IMG/VR virus record: IMGVR_UViG_3300045977_000336
Coordinates: 14,419-78,418 of that record
Strand: one strand, 5' to 3'
DNA length: 64,000 nt
Source: a virus
Under the pieces are notes generated by a model. It ran no database searches, was not told the DNA's origin, and saw only the letters and a program-made list of their open reading frames with translations. How positions within the stretch are numbered: position 1 is the stretch's first letter; every line of letters starts with the position of its first letter. Of the stretch, positions 46,344-52,554 are shown piece after piece. The position numbers and the translations under genes are program-made.

Positions 46344-48599
46344 ATGAAAAAACGCTCGAAAGTCATTGAACCTGAATTCAGCCCCGTCGAGCTCGGCCAC
46401 ATCCCCGGATGGTGGAAAGTCTTCGAGAAAAAGCCCGGCCAGCGCGGCTATGCCTGCGCCGATGGCTGGTGCGGCTGCGGCGGAGGAACGGCGTCGATCA
46501 TCGAGTCGGTCCTGTCTGCTGGCGGTTACATTGAATATATGGCCGCGGTGAATCACTGGACGCCCGCCATTCTCGTGCACACCAAAAACTATCCGGGCGT
46601 CGCGCACTTTTGCGACAAGATGGAGAACCTCGATCCCAAGGTGGCTGTGCCGGGCGGCCATCTCGACATCTTCACCGCCGGCATAAAGTGCCAACCCTTT
46701 ACCCGCGCAGCCGGCGGCAAGGAGCGCAACGAACAAGAGCGCATGGACGCCTTCCAGGTGCTGCGCTGGCTCAACGACCTGGACGTCTCGCGCCTGGTGG
46801 TCGAAAACGTCCAGGAGTTTCTGGATTGGGGGCCTCTCAATAAATCCGGGCATCCGATCAAGAGCCGCAAAGGCGAGATGTTCAATGCGTGGATCGCGCA
46901 GCTGCGGGCCATGAATTACACCGTCAAGTGGCGGGTGTTGACCGCCTGCTGGTACGGCGATCCGACCAGCCGCGAGCGTCTCTGGATCATAGCCAAGAAA
47001 GGCAATCGAAAAATATTTTTCCCAGAGCCCACACACCGCGATCCCAATAAGCCCGCCGACATGTTTAACGCGAGCCTGCCCGTCTGGCCCGTCGCCCGCG
47101 ACATTATTGACTTCAACCTGCCCACCAAGCCGGTCTTTGGCAGCGCCCTCGTGCCTAACACCCTGGCGCGCATCCTGGCCGGATCAGATAAGTTCGTCGG
47201 TAAACGGCTGGAGTTTCCCGTGTTGCCGGGCCTCCCGAAATTCACGCCCAGGAAAGCCAAAAAGGGCGGTCGCCTGAGTCCCTACGCCGAACAGGCTCAC
47301 CGCTTCCACTATCTCAACCTGGCCATTCGCGCCGCGCAGGGTCTGCCGCTCGGCAAGTTGAACAAAAAATACGTCGCCCGTGTTTCACCCGAGGCTGTGG
47401 AGTTGATCCTGAAGTCTGTCCGTTTCAATCCCTCAGCAGTTGAGGAGTCCAGAGAATTCGCTATCAAATTGTACGGCACCTCGACCACGAAATCCATTGA
47501 CCACGCGCTGCCCTCCATCACGGCGCAGGGCGGGCACATTGGGTTTGTCGTCGTGAACAATGGCGGCATTGATGGCTACGAGCGCAATCACGGGCTGCAT
47601 GAATCAGTCCCCGCCATAACGACCCAGCCGTCCATCGGCATGGTCGACTTCGTTATCTCGCAGCAGTCGGAAGGTGCGCCCCGCAGCATCGACCGTGAAC
47701 TTCCGGCCGTCACCCAGGACGGCGCCATCAACAAGATCAGCGTCATCGCGCGTCAAGAGGAATCTTTCCTGATCGCGCATTTCGGCGAGCATGAAAATAA
47801 ATCCCCGCGCACTCATTCGATCGATCAATCCTTTCCCACAGTAACCCAACGCGGTGCCGGCGATCTGGTCGCGCAGGTCAGTTACCTGGTATCCGGTGAG
47901 CACTATAACGGCGACGATCGGGTTGCACCGGGCGAGAAAGAAATGCCGACCCTCACCACCAACCCGGACTGGGGCGTCGTCGAAACGCGGGAATTCATGC
48001 TGGGGTTCGGCGGGCGCTCGCTCGACCCGAGTTCATCGCGTGAGCCGACGAAAACCCAGACCGCCAACGATCGGCCCGGCCTCGTCGAGAGTCATTTCAT
48101 TTTCCCTTCCGACCATCGCGGCGAACCGGAAACGGGCCGGCATACGCAGCCTATCACGATCCCGATCCGGTCCATCACAACCCGGGAGCACTGGACGGTC
48201 GTCGGAACGTATTTGACCGAGTACCACAATCACGACGACCGCGATCGGACATCATCGGTGGATGAAGAACTGCCCACCCTCGACACCAGCAACCGCTACA
48301 CGATCGCTTTCCTGGCCGCCTATTACGGCACCGCGGCAGACGGCCAGCGTCTGGATCAATCCATACGGGCCCTGACCACCAAAGACCGCTTCATGTTGGT
48401 GATCCCCGGCATCGGCTACATGGACTGGCGTTACCGCATGCTCGTCTTAAAGGAACTGAAGAAGGCCCATTCGTTTCCCGACGATTTCGATTTCGCGGAC
48501 GTGAGTTATGAAGAGGGCAAGAAGATGGTCGGCAACTCATGGCCCATCGGCATGGGAACCGCCGTCGTCAGCGCAGCATTGCTCGAGAGGAAATCATGA
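46344..48599 (+). CDS. C5 cytosine DNA methyltransferase with an expanded repetitive variable region
   Basis: DGWCGCGG motif I, IKCQPF motif IV, VENVQEF, TSRERL, RML..ELKKAHSFP and VGNSWP. Confidence 0.88.
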   Translation: MKKRSKVIEPEFSPVELGHIPGWWKVFEKKPGQRGYACADGWCGCGGGTASIIESVLSAGGYIEYMAAVNHWTPAILVHTKNYPGVAHFCDKMENLDPKVAVPGGHLDIFTAGIKCQPFTRAAGGKERNEQERMDAFQVLRWLNDLDVSRLVVENVQEFLDWGPLNKSGHPIKSRKGEMFNAWIAQLRAMNYTVKWRVLTACWYGDPTSRERLWIIAKKGNRKIFFPEPTHRDPNKPADMFNASLPVWPVARDIIDFNLPTKPVFGSALVPNTLARILAGSDKFVGKRLEFPVLPGLPKFTPRKAKKGGRLSPYAEQAHRFHYLNLAIRAAQGLPLGKLNKKYVARVSPEAVELILKSVRFNPSAVEESREFAIKLYGTSTTKSIDHALPSITAQGGHIGFVVVNNGGIDGYERNHGLHESVPAITTQPSIGMVDFVISQQSEGAPRSIDRELPAVTQDGAINKISVIARQEESFLIAHFGEHENKSPRTHSIDQSFPTVTQRGAGDLVAQVSYLVSGEHYNGDDRVAPGEKEMPTLTTNPDWGVVETREFMLGFGGRSLDPSSSREPTKTQTANDRPGLVESHFIFPSDHRGEPETGRHTQPITIPIRSITTREHWTVVGTYLTEYHNHDDRDRTSSVDEELPTLDTSNRYTIAFLAAYYGTAADGQRLDQSIRALTTKDRFMLVIPGIGYMDWRYRMLVLKELKKAHSFPDDFDFADVSYEEGKKMVGNSWPIGMGTAVVSAALLERKS

Positions 48600-48865
48600 C
48601 CCCCACATCCCGCAAACCACCCGTCGAACCGATCGCCATGCGCGCCCGGCGCTTCGGCTACTTCCCCAAGACCTTCGTCTGGCGCGGAAAAACCTACAAC
48701 GTCGAAGCCGTGGAGCGCTGTCACACCACCGCCCAATCCCGCCGGGGCCGTCCCCGTTTATCCCGTCACAACTTCCGCGTGCGCTGCGCCGAAGGCACCT
48801 TCGACATCTTCCAGGACCTGCAACACAACACCTGGCACATTCAAGTCCCGAACCAAGGATCTTAG
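48596..48865 (+). CDS. DUF6504-like small beta protein
   Basis: FVWRGKTYNV..FRVRC..FDIFQD..WH. Confidence 0.6.
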   Translation: MTPTSRKPPVEPIAMRARRFGYFPKTFVWRGKTYNVEAVERCHTTAQSRRGRPRLSRHNFRVRCAEGTFDIFQDLQHNTWHIQVPNQGS

Positions 48866-48867
48866 TC

Positions 48868-49932
48868 ATGGCCGACCTAACCCTCATCTCCTGGACCGAT
48901 CGCACGCACAACGAATGGATCGGCTGCACCAAACTCTCGGCCGGCTGCACCAACTGCTACGCCGAAGTCGATACCCCCACGCGTGTGCTCCGCGCCCACG
49001 GCCAGGAAACCTGGGGACCGCGTGGCATCCGCCACCTGACCTCCGCCTCGAATCGCCGCAAGCCCTACGCGTGGAACAAGCAAGACTGGCAAGAGTGCGA
49101 CTGTGGCTGGCGCGGACCCATGAGTAACACGCACATCGATTGCCCCGAGTGCGGCCGCATCGTTCTGCATCCCACGCGCCAGCGCGTGTTCTGTTCGTCA
49201 TTGTCTGATGTGTTCGAAGTCAACCCGCAACTGAAAACCTACCGCCGCGACCTCTTCAAGACGATCGAGGATTGCCGCAACTTGGACTGGCTCTTGTTAA
49301 CTAAACGGCCCGAGTATGTCGTCCCTCTTATTGAAGGTGCTACCGGTCGAACGGCCGCGGCGTGGCTGGCCGACTGCCGTCATGTGCGCATCGGCACCAC
49401 CGTCGAGAATCAGCCCATGGCCAACCAGCGCATACCTGCATTGCTCAAGATCCCGTCCAGCCTGCTCTTCCTCTCGTGCGAGCCACTCCTGGGCCCCATC
49501 GACTTCACGGTCACCGTCGATCCCGGCGACGAATATGGCGACGGTGTGACTCATTGGAACATGCTGTCCGGCGAGCGTTGGATGAAGGACGGCTTCGAAA
49601 AAGACCTTCCCGGCGAGCGTGCCATCGACTGGGTGATCGCGGGCGGCGAATCTGGCCAGAATGCCCGGCCGATGCACCCCGCCTGGGCGCGTTCGCTGCG
49701 CGATCAATGCGAACTCGCGAACATCCCCTTCCACTTCAAGCAATGGGGTGAATGGCTCGTCAGCTCACATCTCATGGTTGGTGAACACCCAGACACCGGG
49801 CAATATGCCCGGCCGTGGCGCGGTGAAGGCGATGACACCCTCATGGTGCGTGTCGGCAAGAAAGCCGCCGGCCACGTGCTCGACGGTCGGATGCATCGCG
49901 CCTTCCCCGACTTTGGAAAGGCCCTGGTTTAA
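48868..49932 (+). CDS. Second DUF5131/Gp37-Gp68 protein with a zinc-ribbon insert
   Basis: ISWTD..CTKLSAGCTNCYA, LSDVF, LLTKRP, GGESG and FKQWGEW. Confidence 0.9.
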   Translation: MADLTLISWTDRTHNEWIGCTKLSAGCTNCYAEVDTPTRVLRAHGQETWGPRGIRHLTSASNRRKPYAWNKQDWQECDCGWRGPMSNTHIDCPECGRIVLHPTRQRVFCSSLSDVFEVNPQLKTYRRDLFKTIEDCRNLDWLLLTKRPEYVVPLIEGATGRTAAAWLADCRHVRIGTTVENQPMANQRIPALLKIPSSLLFLSCEPLLGPIDFTVTVDPGDEYGDGVTHWNMLSGERWMKDGFEKDLPGERAIDWVIAGGESGQNARPMHPAWARSLRDQCELANIPFHFKQWGEWLVSSHLMVGEHPDTGQYARPWRGEGDDTLMVRVGKKAAGHVLDGRMHRAFPDFGKALV

Positions 49933-49934
49933 CC

Positions 49935-50300
49935 ATGCCTCTCTCACATCGCCCAAATCCCAACCAAGCCCAGATCGACCGCCTCACCGGCCCGGCCCGC
50001 GCCTACTACGACTCCTTCACCCGGCACAAACCCCGCGTGGACATCGTCGGCAATCTGGCCGTGTTCACCTGGACGTTTTCCCAGACTCCCTCGCTCAGCC
50101 CCATGCAGATCCACCGCGCCTACAGCCCCCACGCCACCCGCTGGGCTCTGCGCCAGAGAAGGGGCGAACAGGACGCCGCGCACGATCGGGCGCCGGCCGC
50201 CGAGACGACCGGAGTCAATGAGGAGGCCTCCGCGAGAGAAGCCCATAAGGCTCTTGACACACCGGGAGAAAACTGGGGATTGACAAGCGAAGCGAAGTAG
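49935..50300 (+). CDS. Hypothetical protein
   Basis: 121-aa ORF contiguous with the operon. Confidence 0.45.
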   Translation: MPLSHRPNPNQAQIDRLTGPARAYYDSFTRHKPRVDIVGNLAVFTWTFSQTPSLSPMQIHRAYSPHATRWALRQRRGEQDAAHDRAPAAETTGVNEEASAREAHKALDTPGENWGLTSEAK

Positions 50301-50338
50301 AGTAATATATTACAAAATATTACAAAACACTACAATAC
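50280..50338 (+). promoter_or_regulatory. Consensus promoter followed by three 10-bp direct repeats (putative RHH operator)
   Basis: TTGACA-N17-TAATAT, then ATTACAAAAT ATTACAAAAC ACTACAATAC. Confidence 0.7.
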
Positions 50339-50339
50339 T

Positions 50340-50594
50340 ATGGCTAAAAAAGAACCGACCACCGTGGTTTCCATTCGAATTCCAGTCACACTGGATGCCT
50401 GCCTGCAACAGCTGGCCGCTGCCGACGATCGCTCTAAGAACTCCGTGATCGTCCGCGTTTTGCAGCGCGGGGTTCATCTGTACCACCCGCTGCATCCAGT
50501 TCGGTCAGCCCGGTCTCGATCAGCAAAAGCATCTGTTGATTCAGCGAGCGCTTCGCCTGTTTCGCCATCTGCATCATCCGATCGCGCAGACTGA
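50340..50594 (+). CDS. Arc-like RHH regulator 1
   Basis: VVSIRIPVTLDACLQQLAAADDRSKNSVIVRVL. Confidence 0.75.
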   Translation: MAKKEPTTVVSIRIPVTLDACLQQLAAADDRSKNSVIVRVLQRGVHLYHPLHPVRSARSRSAKASVDSASASPVSPSASSDRAD

Positions 50595-50652
50595 CCGGCA
50601 GTCGCACGGAGACTACTACGGTTTCTTCATCGTAAATTCGAGGTCGTGCCAT
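50434..50652 (-). CDS. Arc-like RHH regulator 2 (leaderless; antisense overlap with RHH 1)
   Basis: VVSVRLPVSLRDRMMQMAKQAKRSLNQQMLLLI; TGcTAAAAT-N6-ATG. Confidence 0.8.
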   Translation of the reverse strand: MARPRIYDEETVVVSVRLPVSLRDRMMQMAKQAKRSLNQQMLLLIETGLTELDAAGGTDEPRAAKRGRSRSS

Positions 50653-50754
50653 GAACGCATTTTAGCACATCGTAAAAATAAAACGGGGAGAGTGTTCTGA
50701 CCACTCTCCCCCGGCAGGGCGACTCGACAATCTCCCTGCCGCGATCATTCTACC

Positions 50755-51069
50755 ATGAAAGGACTCGACGCAATGGCTACCGAAGAAAGCGACACCAAAC
50801 TGACTGACCCACAGACAAAGGCTCTGATGCGCTACGGCCGCGACTTGGCGACTCTGCTCTGGCAGAAGGTCATTGCCAGTTCAACACCGGAAACCCGGCA
50901 AGCGTTGTTTACGTGGCGACACTTGATGAGCATGGCTGAAAGCATGTTACCTGAGAAAGACGTGTCGCCGCGCTATCGCAATGTCGAACATGAAAGTCTA
51001 TTGCGGGAAATCCAGGCGGCAGAATACATTTTGACGGGTGCGACGCCGGACATCTTCGCGAAGAACTGA
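50755..51069 (+). CDS. Hypothetical helical protein upstream of tnpB
   Basis: 104-aa ORF with no transposase motifs. Confidence 0.6.
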   Translation: MKGLDAMATEESDTKLTDPQTKALMRYGRDLATLLWQKVIASSTPETRQALFTWRHLMSMAESMLPEKDVSPRYRNVEHESLLREIQAAEYILTGATPDIFAKN

Positions 51070-51098
51070 ACTGACTAACAACTCAAGGCTAAACGAAT

Positions 51099-52298
51099 AT
51101 GCCTGTCAAGAAAGCATTCAAGGTAGAAATCGACGCCACGCCTACGCAGATCATTGTGCTGCGTAAACACGCGGGCGCGCGCCGCTTCGTCTACAACTGG
51201 ATGCTGGCTCAGTGCATCAACGCACGCGAGCAAGGCGAAAAGCGCCCCTCGACCTACGACCTCGTCAAGCGCTTTCGCGCCGAAGTCAAGCCAAATCTCG
51301 AATGGTATGCCGAAATTTCATCGCGCACCGAAGAAGGCGCGGCGCGCGATTTAGACATGGCTTACAAACATTTCTTTCGGCGCATCAAGCAAGGGAGGCG
51401 CGGCAAGCAGGCTGGCTTCCCGAAATTCAAACGAAAACGCGACGGCGTGGGCAGCTTCGCTACATTCGGTAAGATCCGCGTCACTACCGAGTCCGTGACT
51501 ATCCAGAAGGTCGGGCGGTTGAAGTTGAAAGAGCGCGGGTACATCCCGACTGATATTCGCGTTACGAGCGCGACGCTCAGCACGCGCGGTGGGCGTTGGT
51601 TTATCTCCTGCCTGTGCAAAGTTGAGATCGCACCCGTTGAAAAGAGTGGCGTGATCGGCATCGATCTTGGCCTAAAGCACGCCGTCACGCTCAACGATGG
51701 CACTATCTTTGACGCTCCGAAACCGTTTGCGCGCCACGCCCGCAAGATGCGCCGCCTACAGAAGTCCGTCTCGCGTAAGCATATGGACAGCCAGCGCCGT
51801 CGAACCGCCGTAGCAAAATTGAACCGACTGCACGCTCGCATTGCCACTATCCGTGCTGACTTCATTCATAACCTCACTACGTCACTTGTGAAAACCAAGC
51901 AAGTGATCGTGATTGAGGATTTGAACATCAGCGGCATGGTCAGTAATCATCATGTAGCGCGGGCAATTAGCGATGTCGGCTTTTATGAGATTCGCCGCCA
52001 GTTGGAGTACAAAACAGCGTGGTATGGCGGCACAGTGTTGGTTGCCAGCCGGTGGTATCCATCGTCGAAGTTGTGCCACCGATGTGGATTCAAGAATGAA
52101 GATTTGAAGTTGACTGCCCGGGAATGGACGTGCCCGCAGTGTGGCTCATCTCTTGACCGGGACGTTAATGCGGCCTGCAATCTGGCCGCGCTCGCCGCGA
52201 ATTCCTCGGAGAGTCTAAACGGACGTGGAGGGGGGAGTTCAGAGGATGTGCTAGTCGCAACCTCTCAGCCCGCCGATGAAGCGTCAACCTGTGAGTAG
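51099..52298 (+). CDS. tnpB: RNA-guided endonuclease TnpB, catalytic triad intact
   Basis: HAGARRFVYN, FPKFK, GIDLG (D), IEDLN (E), CHRCG/CPQCG, DRDVNAA (D). Confidence 0.95.
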   Translation: MPVKKAFKVEIDATPTQIIVLRKHAGARRFVYNWMLAQCINAREQGEKRPSTYDLVKRFRAEVKPNLEWYAEISSRTEEGAARDLDMAYKHFFRRIKQGRRGKQAGFPKFKRKRDGVGSFATFGKIRVTTESVTIQKVGRLKLKERGYIPTDIRVTSATLSTRGGRWFISCLCKVEIAPVEKSGVIGIDLGLKHAVTLNDGTIFDAPKPFARHARKMRRLQKSVSRKHMDSQRRRTAVAKLNRLHARIATIRADFIHNLTTSLVKTKQVIVIEDLNISGMVSNHHVARAISDVGFYEIRRQLEYKTAWYGGTVLVASRWYPSSKLCHRCGFKNEDLKLTAREWTCPQCGSSLDRDVNAACNLAALAANSSESLNGRGGGSSEDVLVATSQPADEASTCE

Positions 52299-52326
52299 GG
52301 GAATGGAAAAAACCGTCGTGGTTTCC
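52190..52326 (+). ncRNA. Predicted omegaRNA (scaffold overlapping the tnpB 3' end, plus guide)
   Basis: Position typical for TnpB omegaRNAs; GAGG/CCTC stem and ATGAAGCGTCAAC...GGGAATGG end motif; boundaries approximate. Confidence 0.55.
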
Positions 52327-52514
52327 GTTCGTCTTGCAGCGGGGCGTGCACTTGTATCCGCCTCCTGCAAGCCCTTCTCGATCAAGACGATCAACTGCTG
52401 GCTCAGCGAGCGATGCTCAACCTCAGCCAACCGAACAACCTGATCGTGCAGGCTAGCCGGCATGCGCACGGAAACAATCATTGTCGGTTCTGCAAAGCTT
52501 TTTGGACGCGCCAT
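52284..52514 (-). CDS. Arc-like RHH regulator 3 (paralog of RHH 2)
   Basis: MARP..IVSVRMPASLHDQVVRLAEVEHRSLSQQLIVLIEKGL; same TGcTAAAAT-N6-ATG. Confidence 0.8.
   Translation of the reverse strand: MARPKSFAEPTMIVSVRMPASLHDQVVRLAEVEHRSLSQQLIVLIEKGLQEADTSARPAARRTETTTVFSIPLLTG
52303..52362 (+). pseudogene. Internally deleted copy of RHH 1
   Basis: ATG GAA AAA ACC GTC GTG GTT TCC GTT (MEKTVVVSV) fused out of frame to GTC TTG CAG CGG GGC GTG CAC TTG TAT (VLQRGVHLY), the same peptide as in RHH 1. Confidence 0.7.
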
Positions 52515-52554
52515 GCGAGCATTTTAGCATAAAAAGACGGGAGCGAGCACTCGC

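What the first reader, a model, noticed from the sequence alone, without database searches (positions are those of the whole stretch)
50340..52362. Transposase-less TnpB cassette whose predicted guide targets an Arc-like repressor gene that the cassette replaces with a recoded copy
Seen: TnpB has the full D/E/D triad and no tnpA nearby. The unit RHH1(+)/RHH2(-)/ORF104/tnpB begins at ATGG (50340-50343) and ends at ATGG (52303-52306). It is followed by an internally deleted RHH1 homolog (MEKTVVVSV joined to VLQRGVHLY) and an intact RHH2 paralog with the same leaderless promoter. Established: a TnpB guide is the DNA just beyond the element's right end, and IS607-type elements recombine at a GG core. 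Inference: if the right end is GGGAATGG, the guide is AAAAAACCGTCGTGGTTTCC, the first codons of the ancestral RHH gene, and the TAM ends in ATGG. The cassette's own RHH1 reads ATGG-CTAAAAAAGAACCGACCACC and should escape cleavage. The part of the old gene that survives is essentially the guide plus the stretch overlapping RHH3. This resembles RNA-guided intronless homing or a phage-versus-phage nuclease that supplies its own resistant allele. An alternative IS605-type end at TCAA (52284-52287) would give the guide CCTGTGAGTAGGG..., so the boundary is uncertain.
Basis: partly seen in the sequence, partly recalled or inferred. Interest (0 to 1): 0.86.

Follow-up and report, generated by a model that had tools for sequence, protein, structure and literature searches.

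The report
Solo TnpB nuclease beside duplicated phage repressors
A soil phage carries a transposase-less TnpB RNA-guided nuclease whose guide most likely matches the start of a neighbouring, already broken Arc-like repressor gene. This is the usual right-flank guide of such elements, and nothing shows a larger cassette that swaps in a resistant repressor copy.

Summary
They are an intact TnpB (51099-52298), no tnpA, two diverged copies of a convergent Arc-like RHH pair, and a broken right-hand RHH1' copy.

TCAA (52284-87) belongs to an internal omegaRNA motif that closes a covarying long-range helix. In every relative the scaffold runs on past that motif. In the window only 19 nt remain before RHH1' homology starts, so the guide is about 52307-52326, the first codons of RHH1'. 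However, the window lacks the terminal hairpin that relatives have, so the omegaRNA may be truncated.

The cassette idea is not supported.
- The two relatives with DNA (69% identical TnpB, in other phage-like contigs) share only tnpB plus about 12 nt upstream and the 3' scaffold. Neither has RHH genes or ORF104 nearby.
- Their left flanks read TGGG, the known IS607 TAM.
- An ATGG TAM would equal the element's own ...AATGG junction, so self and target could not be told apart.
- No empty allele was found.

Best reading: a solo IS607-lineage TnpB unit lodged between paralogous repressor modules, immobile and possibly decaying. It is a new member of a known kind.

The parts
50280..50339 (+). AT-rich control region upstream of RHH1. 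It holds two sigma70-like promoters (TTGACA-17-TAATAT and ATTACA-16-TACAAT) and two tandem ATATTACAAAA repeats that look like an operator.
   Evidence: The repeat occurs exactly only here in the 64 kb.
50340..50594 (+). RHH1, an Arc-like ribbon-helix-helix gene. The core is about residues 5-47, and the tail overlaps RHH2 antisense.
   Evidence: PHROG Arc-like hits at 2e-5 to 4e-4. Two full-length remote homologs, P0124 (52%) and P0125 (45%). No Pfam hit.
50434..50652 (-). RHH2, an Arc-like gene convergent with RHH1. It has a leaderless-type promoter: TAAAAT at 50659-50664 on the minus strand, 6 nt before the ATG.
50685..50711 (-). Intrinsic terminator on the minus strand, just upstream of the RHH2 promoter.
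50755..51069 (+). ORF104, a phage gene of unknown function. It is not part of the TnpB unit seen in relatives.
   Evidence: One homolog, P0122 (72% identical), has a conserved C-terminus. No Pfam or PHROG hit. Absent next to the related TnpB genes.
51087..51098 (+). Left limit of the sequence shared with related TnpB units: GG followed by a 10-nt leader (AAGG|CTAAACGAAT-ATG).
   Evidence: L002 reads GTGGGG|CTTTATTTT-ATG and L132 reads ATTGGG|CTTTTCGTTT-ATG. No similarity further upstream.
51099..52298 (+). tnpB, 399 aa, with the RuvC D189/E273/D355 triad and the zinc finger intact.
52060..52306 (+). omegaRNA scaffold overlapping the 3' end of tnpB. It has conserved helices, the internal motif GATGAAGCGTCAAC (52275-52288), and a short tail CTGTGAGTAGGGGAATGG. 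The terminal hairpin present in relatives is missing.
   Evidence: Consensus fold with compensatory pairs. Covariance model R1 matches 52218-52306 end to end, 30.7 bits, E 6e-7. Motif comparison.
52307..52326 (+). Most likely guide, AAAAAACCGTCGTGGTTTCC, which corresponds to codons 2-8 of RHH1'.
   Evidence: Inferred from the scaffold end. Unique in the window at 3 or fewer mismatches.
52303..52456 (+). RHH1' pseudogene. The 5' piece is 52303-52332 (MEKTVVVSVR). An 80-nt loss has its junction at 52329-52332. The 3' piece runs from 52334 in another frame (LQRGVHLY...).
   Evidence: The 3' piece is 55% identical to the tail of P0124.
52284..52514 (-). RHH3, an intact Arc-like paralog of RHH2 (46% identical). 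Its C-terminal tail now reads through the deletion scar into the end of the TnpB unit. It has the same leaderless-type promoter, TAAAAT at 52521-52526 on the minus strand.

Best explanation
A solo, transposase-less TnpB-omegaRNA unit of the IS607-like lineage (about 51087-52306, 1.2 kb) lies in the regulatory region of a soil phage. It sits between two old, diverged copies of a convergent Arc-like repressor pair.

Shown:
- TnpB is intact.
- The omegaRNA scaffold overlaps the 3' end of tnpB.
- TCAA is part of an internal scaffold motif, not the end of the element.
- The sequence derived from the element runs out between 52297 and 52306, directly against the first codons of the right-hand RHH1' gene.

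Inferred:
- The scaffold ends ...GGGGAATGG (52306). The guide is then AAAAAACCGTCGTGGTTTCC, simply the element's right flank, as in every TnpB element.
- The TAM is TGGG-like, with a purine at position -3. The element's own AATGG junction would therefore be spared, and so would any RHH allele that starts ATGG.
- RHH1, RHH2 and ORF104 are resident phage genes. They may drive tnpB by read-through from the strong RHH1 promoter, but they do not travel with it.
- RHH1' lost its promoter to the insertion and later decayed through an 80-nt frameshifting deletion. Its paralog RHH1 remains.
- The unit cannot transpose here, because it has no TnpA and almost no left end. Its omegaRNA lacks the usual terminal hairpin, so it may be weakened or dead.
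For: - TnpB domains and catalytic residues are intact.
- The genome has no Y1 transposase and no small serine tnpA.
- The window's CAGCCCGCCGATGAAGCGTCAAC aligns with the internal motif CAGCCGCTCGGCGAAGCAGGAAC of relatives.
- The long-range helix covaries: CCUG:CAGG in most relatives, CUCG:CGAG in L138, CCUC:GAGG in L135, CCUA:UAGG in L134, and GACG:CGUC in the window, L002 and L132.
- All relatives continue 26-79 nt past this motif. They end either ...GTCAA (multi-copy IS605-type elements) or ...AACGG.
- Among the ...AACGG group, L213 and L135 have a resolvase-type tnpA directly upstream.
- The ten subfamily proteins keep a YRN-RNN-YNN codon pattern for three codons beyond TCAA.
- Model R1 aligns window 52218-52306 end to end, pairing GUGAGUA--GGGGAAUGG with the consensus GUAaGUuUUGgaGAACGG.
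- L002 has a strongly folded terminal module (z -3.1) that ends GGGATAATGG.
- The unit shared with L002 and L132 is only tnpB plus short ends. Their neighbours are methyltransferase and T5orf172 genes.
- The left flanks of L002 and L132 read TGGGG and TTGGG. This matches the TGGG TAM and the ...UCGG scaffold end shown for an IS607 TnpB (PMC10690162) and the GG crossover described in PMC10711439.
- The homology between the two modules and the 80-nt loss are shown.
Against: - A model built only from the last 24 nt of the ...AACGG relatives does not pick out 52289-52306, nor the ends I propose for L002 and L132. The exact end therefore rests on weak motif similarity and on model R1, which included L002 and L132.
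- The tree leaves the subfamily in a polytomy with the IS605-type and the ...AACGG groups.
- The window's left flank reads AAGG, not TGGG.
- If the element is removed at the two GG, the rebuilt site (CTCAAGG + AAAAAACC) gives RHH1' no ATG. The simple insertion model is therefore incomplete, and a later rearrangement at the left junction must be assumed.
- GGCTAAA occurs both at the RHH1 start (50342-48) and at the left junction (51087-93). This is unexplained.
- Only three elements of the subfamily have DNA available.
Confidence: 0.58

Rival explanations
1. Decaying relic. The true right end (terminal hairpin plus ...AAYGG) was lost in a deletion that fused the truncated scaffold to the start region of RHH1'. 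GGGGAATGG would then be phage sequence. The RNA has no proper guide junction, and TnpB is inactive or only coincidentally intact.
For: - Every relative has a hairpin module of 26-79 nt between the GAAGCnnnnAAC motif and the end. The window has 18 nt and no 3' helix strand.
- The window's TnpB tail is the shortest in the subfamily.
- The terminal motif is not significant on its own.
- The left flank lacks a TGGG TAM.
- The neighbouring RHH1' carries an 80-nt deletion, so deletions have occurred at this locus.
Against: - The tnpB ORF and all catalytic residues are intact.
- GGGGAATGG closely resembles L002's GGGATAATGG and L136's GGGGAACGG.
- L225 shows that short terminal modules (26 nt) exist naturally.
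Confidence: 0.22
2. The 1.96-kb block 50344-52306 (RHH1 body, RHH2, ORF104, tnpB) is one homing cassette inserted at the ATGG of an ancestral RHH gene. TnpB cuts naive alleles, and the cassette supplies a resistant RHH1.
For: - With ATGG as the crossover, the rebuilt ancestral gene (promoter 50280-50339 + ATGG + AAAAAACC...) has a start codon and a promoter, which the smaller-unit model lacks.
- The guide covers the RHH1' start.
- RHH1 is not matched by the guide.
- The sequence after both GG is CTAAA (50344 and 51089).
- RHH1, ORF104 and tnpB are co-oriented behind one strong promoter.
Against: - Relatives share only tnpB and its short ends, with no RHH or ORF104 nearby.
- A TAM of ATGG equals the element's own right junction, so the naive allele would be as uncuttable as self. 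The relatives' flanks and published IS607 TAMs have G at position -3 (PMC10690162).
- The modules are only about 70% identical, which points to an old duplication.
- No empty allele was found.
- MAK-type starts (ATGGCTAAA) are common, so the CTAAA match may be chance.
Confidence: 0.12
3. IS605-type element ending at TCAA (52287). The guide would then be CCTGTGAGTAGGGGAATGGA, which is mostly non-coding and only touches the RHH1' start codon.
For: - Ungapped DNA similarity among the window, L002 and L132 stops at ...CGTCwA.
- Multi-copy distant relatives end ...GTCAA.
- The protein is as close to ISDra2 TnpB as to other relatives.
Against: - TCAA here lies in the internal GAAGCAGGAAC-equivalent motif whose helix covaries. 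Relatives always continue past it.
- There is no G-rich subterminal hairpin before it.
- Codon patterns stay conserved beyond it.
- There is no left-end homology or hairpin.
- A left end at TTGAC 51031 is excluded, because the ORF104 C-terminus encoded downstream of it is conserved in P0122.
Confidence: 0.06

Closest known systems
IS607-family TnpB-omegaRNA, for example the CboIStron TnpB of Clostridium botulinum and ISXfa1 (PMC10690162, PMC10711439)
   Same: - RuvC nuclease with a zinc finger.
- omegaRNA overlapping the 3' end of tnpB.
- Scaffold end of the form ...YGG, and GG at both junctions.
- Guide equal to the right flank.
- In the two DNA relatives, a TGGG-like left flank.
   Different: - No serine TnpA anywhere nearby.
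- A left end of only about 12 nt.
- ATGG instead of CGG at the scaffold end.
- The terminal hairpin is missing in the window.
- The window's left flank is AAGG.
- The carrier is a phage, not a bacterial chromosome.
ISDra2 TnpB (IS200/IS605; PDB 8EXA, 8H1J)
   Same: Closest natural solved structure (E 2e-69). Same domain order and catalytic triad.
   Different: ISDra2 has a Y1 TnpA, a TTGAT TAM, subterminal hairpins, and a scaffold that ends at the transposon boundary. None of these was found here.
Free-standing phage homing endonuclease genes, such as T4 Seg and Mob (PMC2330249, PMC2790892)
   Same: A nuclease gene without a transposase, sitting between phage genes. It could spread only by cutting naive alleles and being copied in with flanking markers.
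   Different: The specificity would be RNA-guided. Homing is not shown: no empty allele was found, and the TAM logic argues against cutting an ATGG allele.
P22 immI Arc/Mnt-type ribbon-helix-helix repressor pairs
   Same: Small Arc-like repressors in a phage control region, with operator-like repeats in the promoter.
   Different: Here the two genes converge and overlap antisense. The module is duplicated, and one copy is broken next to a TnpB.

Membership tests
TnpB (OMEGA RNA-guided nuclease) | OrfB_IS605 RuvC domain and zinc-ribbon TNB domain, with the D-E-D triad | tested here: met
   Pfam hits at 2e-23, 5e-22 and 2e-15. D189, E273 and D355 align with the DLG, EDL and DRD motifs of TnpB structures and are invariant in the subfamily.
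TnpB (OMEGA RNA-guided nuclease) | Structured omegaRNA scaffold overlapping the 3' end of the gene | tested here: met
   The consensus fold has 13 pairs with double changes. The covarying long-range helix is seen. Model R1 matches at E 6e-7. Rfam has no match.
TnpB (OMEGA RNA-guided nuclease) | Guide-dependent, TAM-dependent DNA cleavage | not testable with these tools
   Needs RIP-seq, a TAM library and an interference assay.
IS607 family element | Adjacent small serine recombinase TnpA | tested here: not met
   The only resolvase-domain protein is a 513-aa integrase about 20 kb away. The relatives L213, L135 and L008 do have one.
IS607 family element | GG core at both junctions and a scaffold ending ...YGG | tested here: inconclusive
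   GG lies at 51087-88 and 52305-06, and the tail AATGG resembles the AACGG of relatives. The terminal-only model R2 gives no significant hit.
IS607 family element | TGGG-like TAM on the left flank | tested here: not met
   The window reads CAAGG. L002 (TGGGG) and L132 (TTGGG) do meet it.
IS200/IS605 family element | Y1 (HUH) TnpA | tested here: not met
   No PF01797 match in the genome.
IS200/IS605 family element | Left and right ends with subterminal hairpins, and a right end ...TCAA at the scaffold end | tested here: not met
   No left-end homology beyond 12 nt. TCAA is part of an internal motif.
   The exact-pattern scan of IMG/VR found nothing. No alternative joints appear in four runs. 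Relatives lack RHH and ORF104. The search was limited because no close relative of the phage is available.
Arc/MetJ ribbon-helix-helix repressors | N-terminal beta-strand followed by two helices, with a match to RHH profiles | tested here: met
   RHH_5 and Arc hits lie at or just under the cut-off for RHH2 and RHH3. PHROG Arc-like hits cover all three. The shared motif is T-V-V-S-(V/I)-R-x-P.

The most novel reading that the evidence does not exclude
The TnpB unit acts as an RNA-guided, free-standing homing nuclease of phages. During co-infection it cuts the start of a rival phage's Arc-like repressor gene and is copied in together with the linked RHH1-RHH2-ORF104 block. This would replace the rival's control module with its own, cleavage-resistant one.
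Probability: 0.1. Interest if true: 0.8.

Novelty: new member of a known kind. Interest (0 to 1): 0.35.

Why it matters
If the plain reading holds, this is one more solo TnpB. It still has some value as an example.
- It belongs to a small phage-borne TnpB subfamily with almost no left end and no transposase. Such elements could persist only by homing or by read-through expression.
- The window copy is a natural omegaRNA that lacks the terminal hairpin. Whether it still works is a simple test of which scaffold parts are dispensable.

The more exciting idea is an RNA-guided nuclease that swaps phage repressor modules. That would be a new kind of phage-against-phage weapon, but the evidence here leans against it.

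Tried and rejected
DNA for the closer TnpB relatives P0002, P0003 and P0006-P0010, for the ORF104 homolog P0122, and for the RHH1 homologs P0124 and P0125 could not be fetched.
- The phage collection gave no DNA match. Rfam gave none.
- IMG/VR holds no close relative of this phage (DUF5131 best 44%) or of the L002 phage (best 37%). No empty site could be compared.
- Scans for ORF104 and for the RHH proteins in viral contigs found nothing.
- The exact pattern for the proposed empty allele found nothing.
- Contigs of four soil runs showed the same junctions and no joints. The RNA library had no contig over the omegaRNA region, so the RNA end could not be mapped.
- An IS605-type left end at TTGAC 51031 was considered. 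It was dropped because the ORF104 C-terminus encoded beyond it is conserved in P0122.
- A long terminal module reaching about 52343 folds well (z -2.7). It was dropped because that stretch is colinear with RHH1 coding sequence.
- A pseudoknot between the scaffold tail and the upstream GAATTCC was looked for by eye. It was not consistent across the three elements.
- ORF104 and ORF87 are not paralogs, so the duplicated unit is only the RHH pair with its promoter and terminator.
- The left breakpoint of the 80-nt deletion lies 23-26 nt after the predicted guide start, near where TnpB cuts. That is roughly a 1 in 4 chance coincidence and is not used as evidence.
Full report
**What the window is.** The window is the last 64 kb of a 78-kb IMG/VR virus record and carries a single tnpB copy. 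The same phage, with identical junctions, appears as short contigs in several soil metagenomes.

**The layout around the finding**:
- A strong promoter region (50280-50339) with two tandem ATATTACAAAA repeats.
- RHH1 (50340-50594, plus strand), converging on RHH2 (50434-50652, minus strand).
- A minus-strand terminator (50685-50711).
- ORF104 (50755-51069).
- tnpB (51099-52298).
- A second RHH module: a broken RHH1' (52303-52456, plus strand) converging on an intact RHH3 (52284-52514, minus strand).

**Checking the observation.**
- TnpB has all three Pfam domains. It matches ISDra2 TnpB structures at E 2e-69. D189, E273, D355 and both CxxC pairs are in place.
- The genome has no Y1 transposase. 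Its only resolvase-domain protein is a 513-aa integrase about 20 kb away.
- All three RHH proteins hit Arc-like families.
- RHH1 was not called by the public gene callers, but it has two full-length remote homologs.
- RHH2 and RHH3 share the TAAAAT-N6-ATG layout.
- The right module is colinear with the left at about 70% identity and lacks 80 nt. That loss shifts the frame, so RHH1' is a pseudogene. It also removed RHH3's original stop codon, so the RHH3 tail now reads into the end of the TnpB unit.

**Where the TnpB unit ends on the right.**
- Only three members of the closest subfamily (57-71% protein identity) have DNA available: the window, L002 (a 124-kb viral contig) and L132. Ungapped similarity among them stops at ...GATGAAnCGTCwA, that is at TCAA 52287.
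- Comparison with more distant relatives changed that. The window's CAGCCCGCCGATGAAGCGTCAAC is the counterpart of an internal motif, for example CAGCCGCTCGGCGAAGCAGGAAC in L139. Four bases of that motif pair with the conserved AACGCCTGTGGAG box.
- The helix covaries: CCUG:CAGG, CUCG:CGAG, CCUC:GAGG, CCUA:UAGG, and GACG:CGUC in the window subfamily.
- In every relative the scaffold goes on for 26-79 nt after this motif, through a hairpin. It ends either ...GTCAA (multi-copy IS605-type elements, where copies define the boundary) or ...AACGG.
- Of the relatives scanned, three have a resolvase-type tnpA directly upstream (two of them in the ...AACGG group) and one has a Y1 tnpA.
- The ten subfamily proteins, whose ORFs read into this region, keep a YRN-RNN-YNN codon pattern for three codons past TCAA. 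They also share group-specific tails.
- L002 has a strongly folded module after its TCAA (z -3.1) that ends GGGATAATGG. L132 has a weaker one that ends GATGG.

**What this means for the guide.**
- In the window only 19 nt (CCTGTGAGTAGGGGAATGG) lie between the internal motif and the point where homology to RHH1 begins.
- A covariance model built from the ...AACGG relatives plus L002 and L132 matches 52218-52306 end to end (30.7 bits, E 6e-7). It aligns GUGAGUA--GGGGAAUGG with the terminal consensus and skips the hairpin module.
- The element-derived sequence therefore ends between 52297 and 52306.

**Two cautions on the right end.**
- A model of only the last 24 nt of the ...AACGG relatives does not find this site, nor my proposed ends in L002 and L132.
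- The tree leaves the subfamily unresolved between the two end types.
- The missing hairpin also allows a different history, in which the true end was deleted and the omegaRNA is defective.

**Where the unit begins on the left.**
- The 250 nt upstream of tnpB show no similarity among the three elements.
- What they share starts at GG|CT, 12-13 nt before the ATG: AAGG|CTAAACGAAT in the window, GTGGGG|CTTTATTTT in L002, and ATTGGG|CTTTTCGTTT in L132.
- The flanks of L002 and L132 read TGGG. That is the TAM and target motif shown experimentally for an IS607 TnpB, whose scaffold ends ...UCGG so that its own junction is spared (PMC10690162). The GG crossover is described in PMC10711439.
- Neither relative has RHH genes or ORF104 nearby. 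Their neighbours are DNA methyltransferase and T5orf172 genes.
- ORF104 has a 72% homolog with a conserved C-terminus. It is therefore an ordinary, if rare, phage gene, and an IS605-type left end inside it is excluded.

**Why the cassette model is doubtful.**
- The conserved unit is only tnpB with short ends.
- The proposed empty allele (...TATGG + guide) carries the same four bases before the target as the element's own right junction (...AATGG + guide). A TnpB that spares itself should spare that allele too.
- The two RHH modules are old paralogs, not a recent recoding.
- No empty allele or alternative joint was found, although the search space was poor.

**What remains unexplained.**
- Removing the unit at the two GG gives CTCAAGG + AAAAAACC, which leaves RHH1' without an ATG.
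- The window's left flank is AAGG, not TGGG.
- GGCTAAA occurs at both candidate left junctions (50342-48 and 51087-93).
- A rearrangement at the left junction after insertion, such as an adjacent deletion that removed the RHH1' promoter, would reconcile these points. It is not shown.

**Verdict.** This is a solo IS607-lineage TnpB-omegaRNA unit lodged against the start of one copy of a duplicated Arc-like repressor module. Its guide is the usual right flank, it is immobile, and it may be decaying. The guide inference probably stands. The homing cassette with a resistant allele remains an unlikely but not excluded reading.

Noticed in passing
window 50340-50652 and 52303-52514: The two Arc-like genes of each module converge and overlap antisense by about 160 nt. 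Each tail lies over the other's core. The RHH1 tail is conserved in two remote homologs, which suggests the overlapping pair is a conserved module.
   Followed up: partly
window 50307-50327: Two exact tandem ATATTACAAAA repeats lie between the two promoter-like sites upstream of RHH1. They occur nowhere else in the window and are likely an operator.
   Followed up: partly
window 52329-52332: The left breakpoint of the 80-nt deletion in RHH1' lies 23-26 nt after the predicted guide start, close to where TnpB enzymes cut. This could be a repair scar or chance.
   Followed up: no
window 51049-51199: A contig from a soil metatranscriptome library bridges the end of ORF104 and the start of tnpB. 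This is compatible with co-transcription, but DNA carry-over cannot be excluded.
   Followed up: no
L002 5258-5268 and 6438-6448: The 11-mer CGGGATAATGG at the proposed right end of the L002 element recurs once inside the downstream methyltransferase gene, with no flanking similarity.
   Followed up: no
window 46344-49932; L002 2970-3695 and 5517-7813: Both the window and L002 carry their TnpB unit within or next to a cluster of DNA methyltransferase genes.
   Followed up: no
window 50342-50348 and 51087-51093: GGCTAAA occurs both at the RHH1 start codon and at the left limit of the TnpB unit. It could be chance, since MAK-type starts are common, or a recombination joint.
   Followed up: partly
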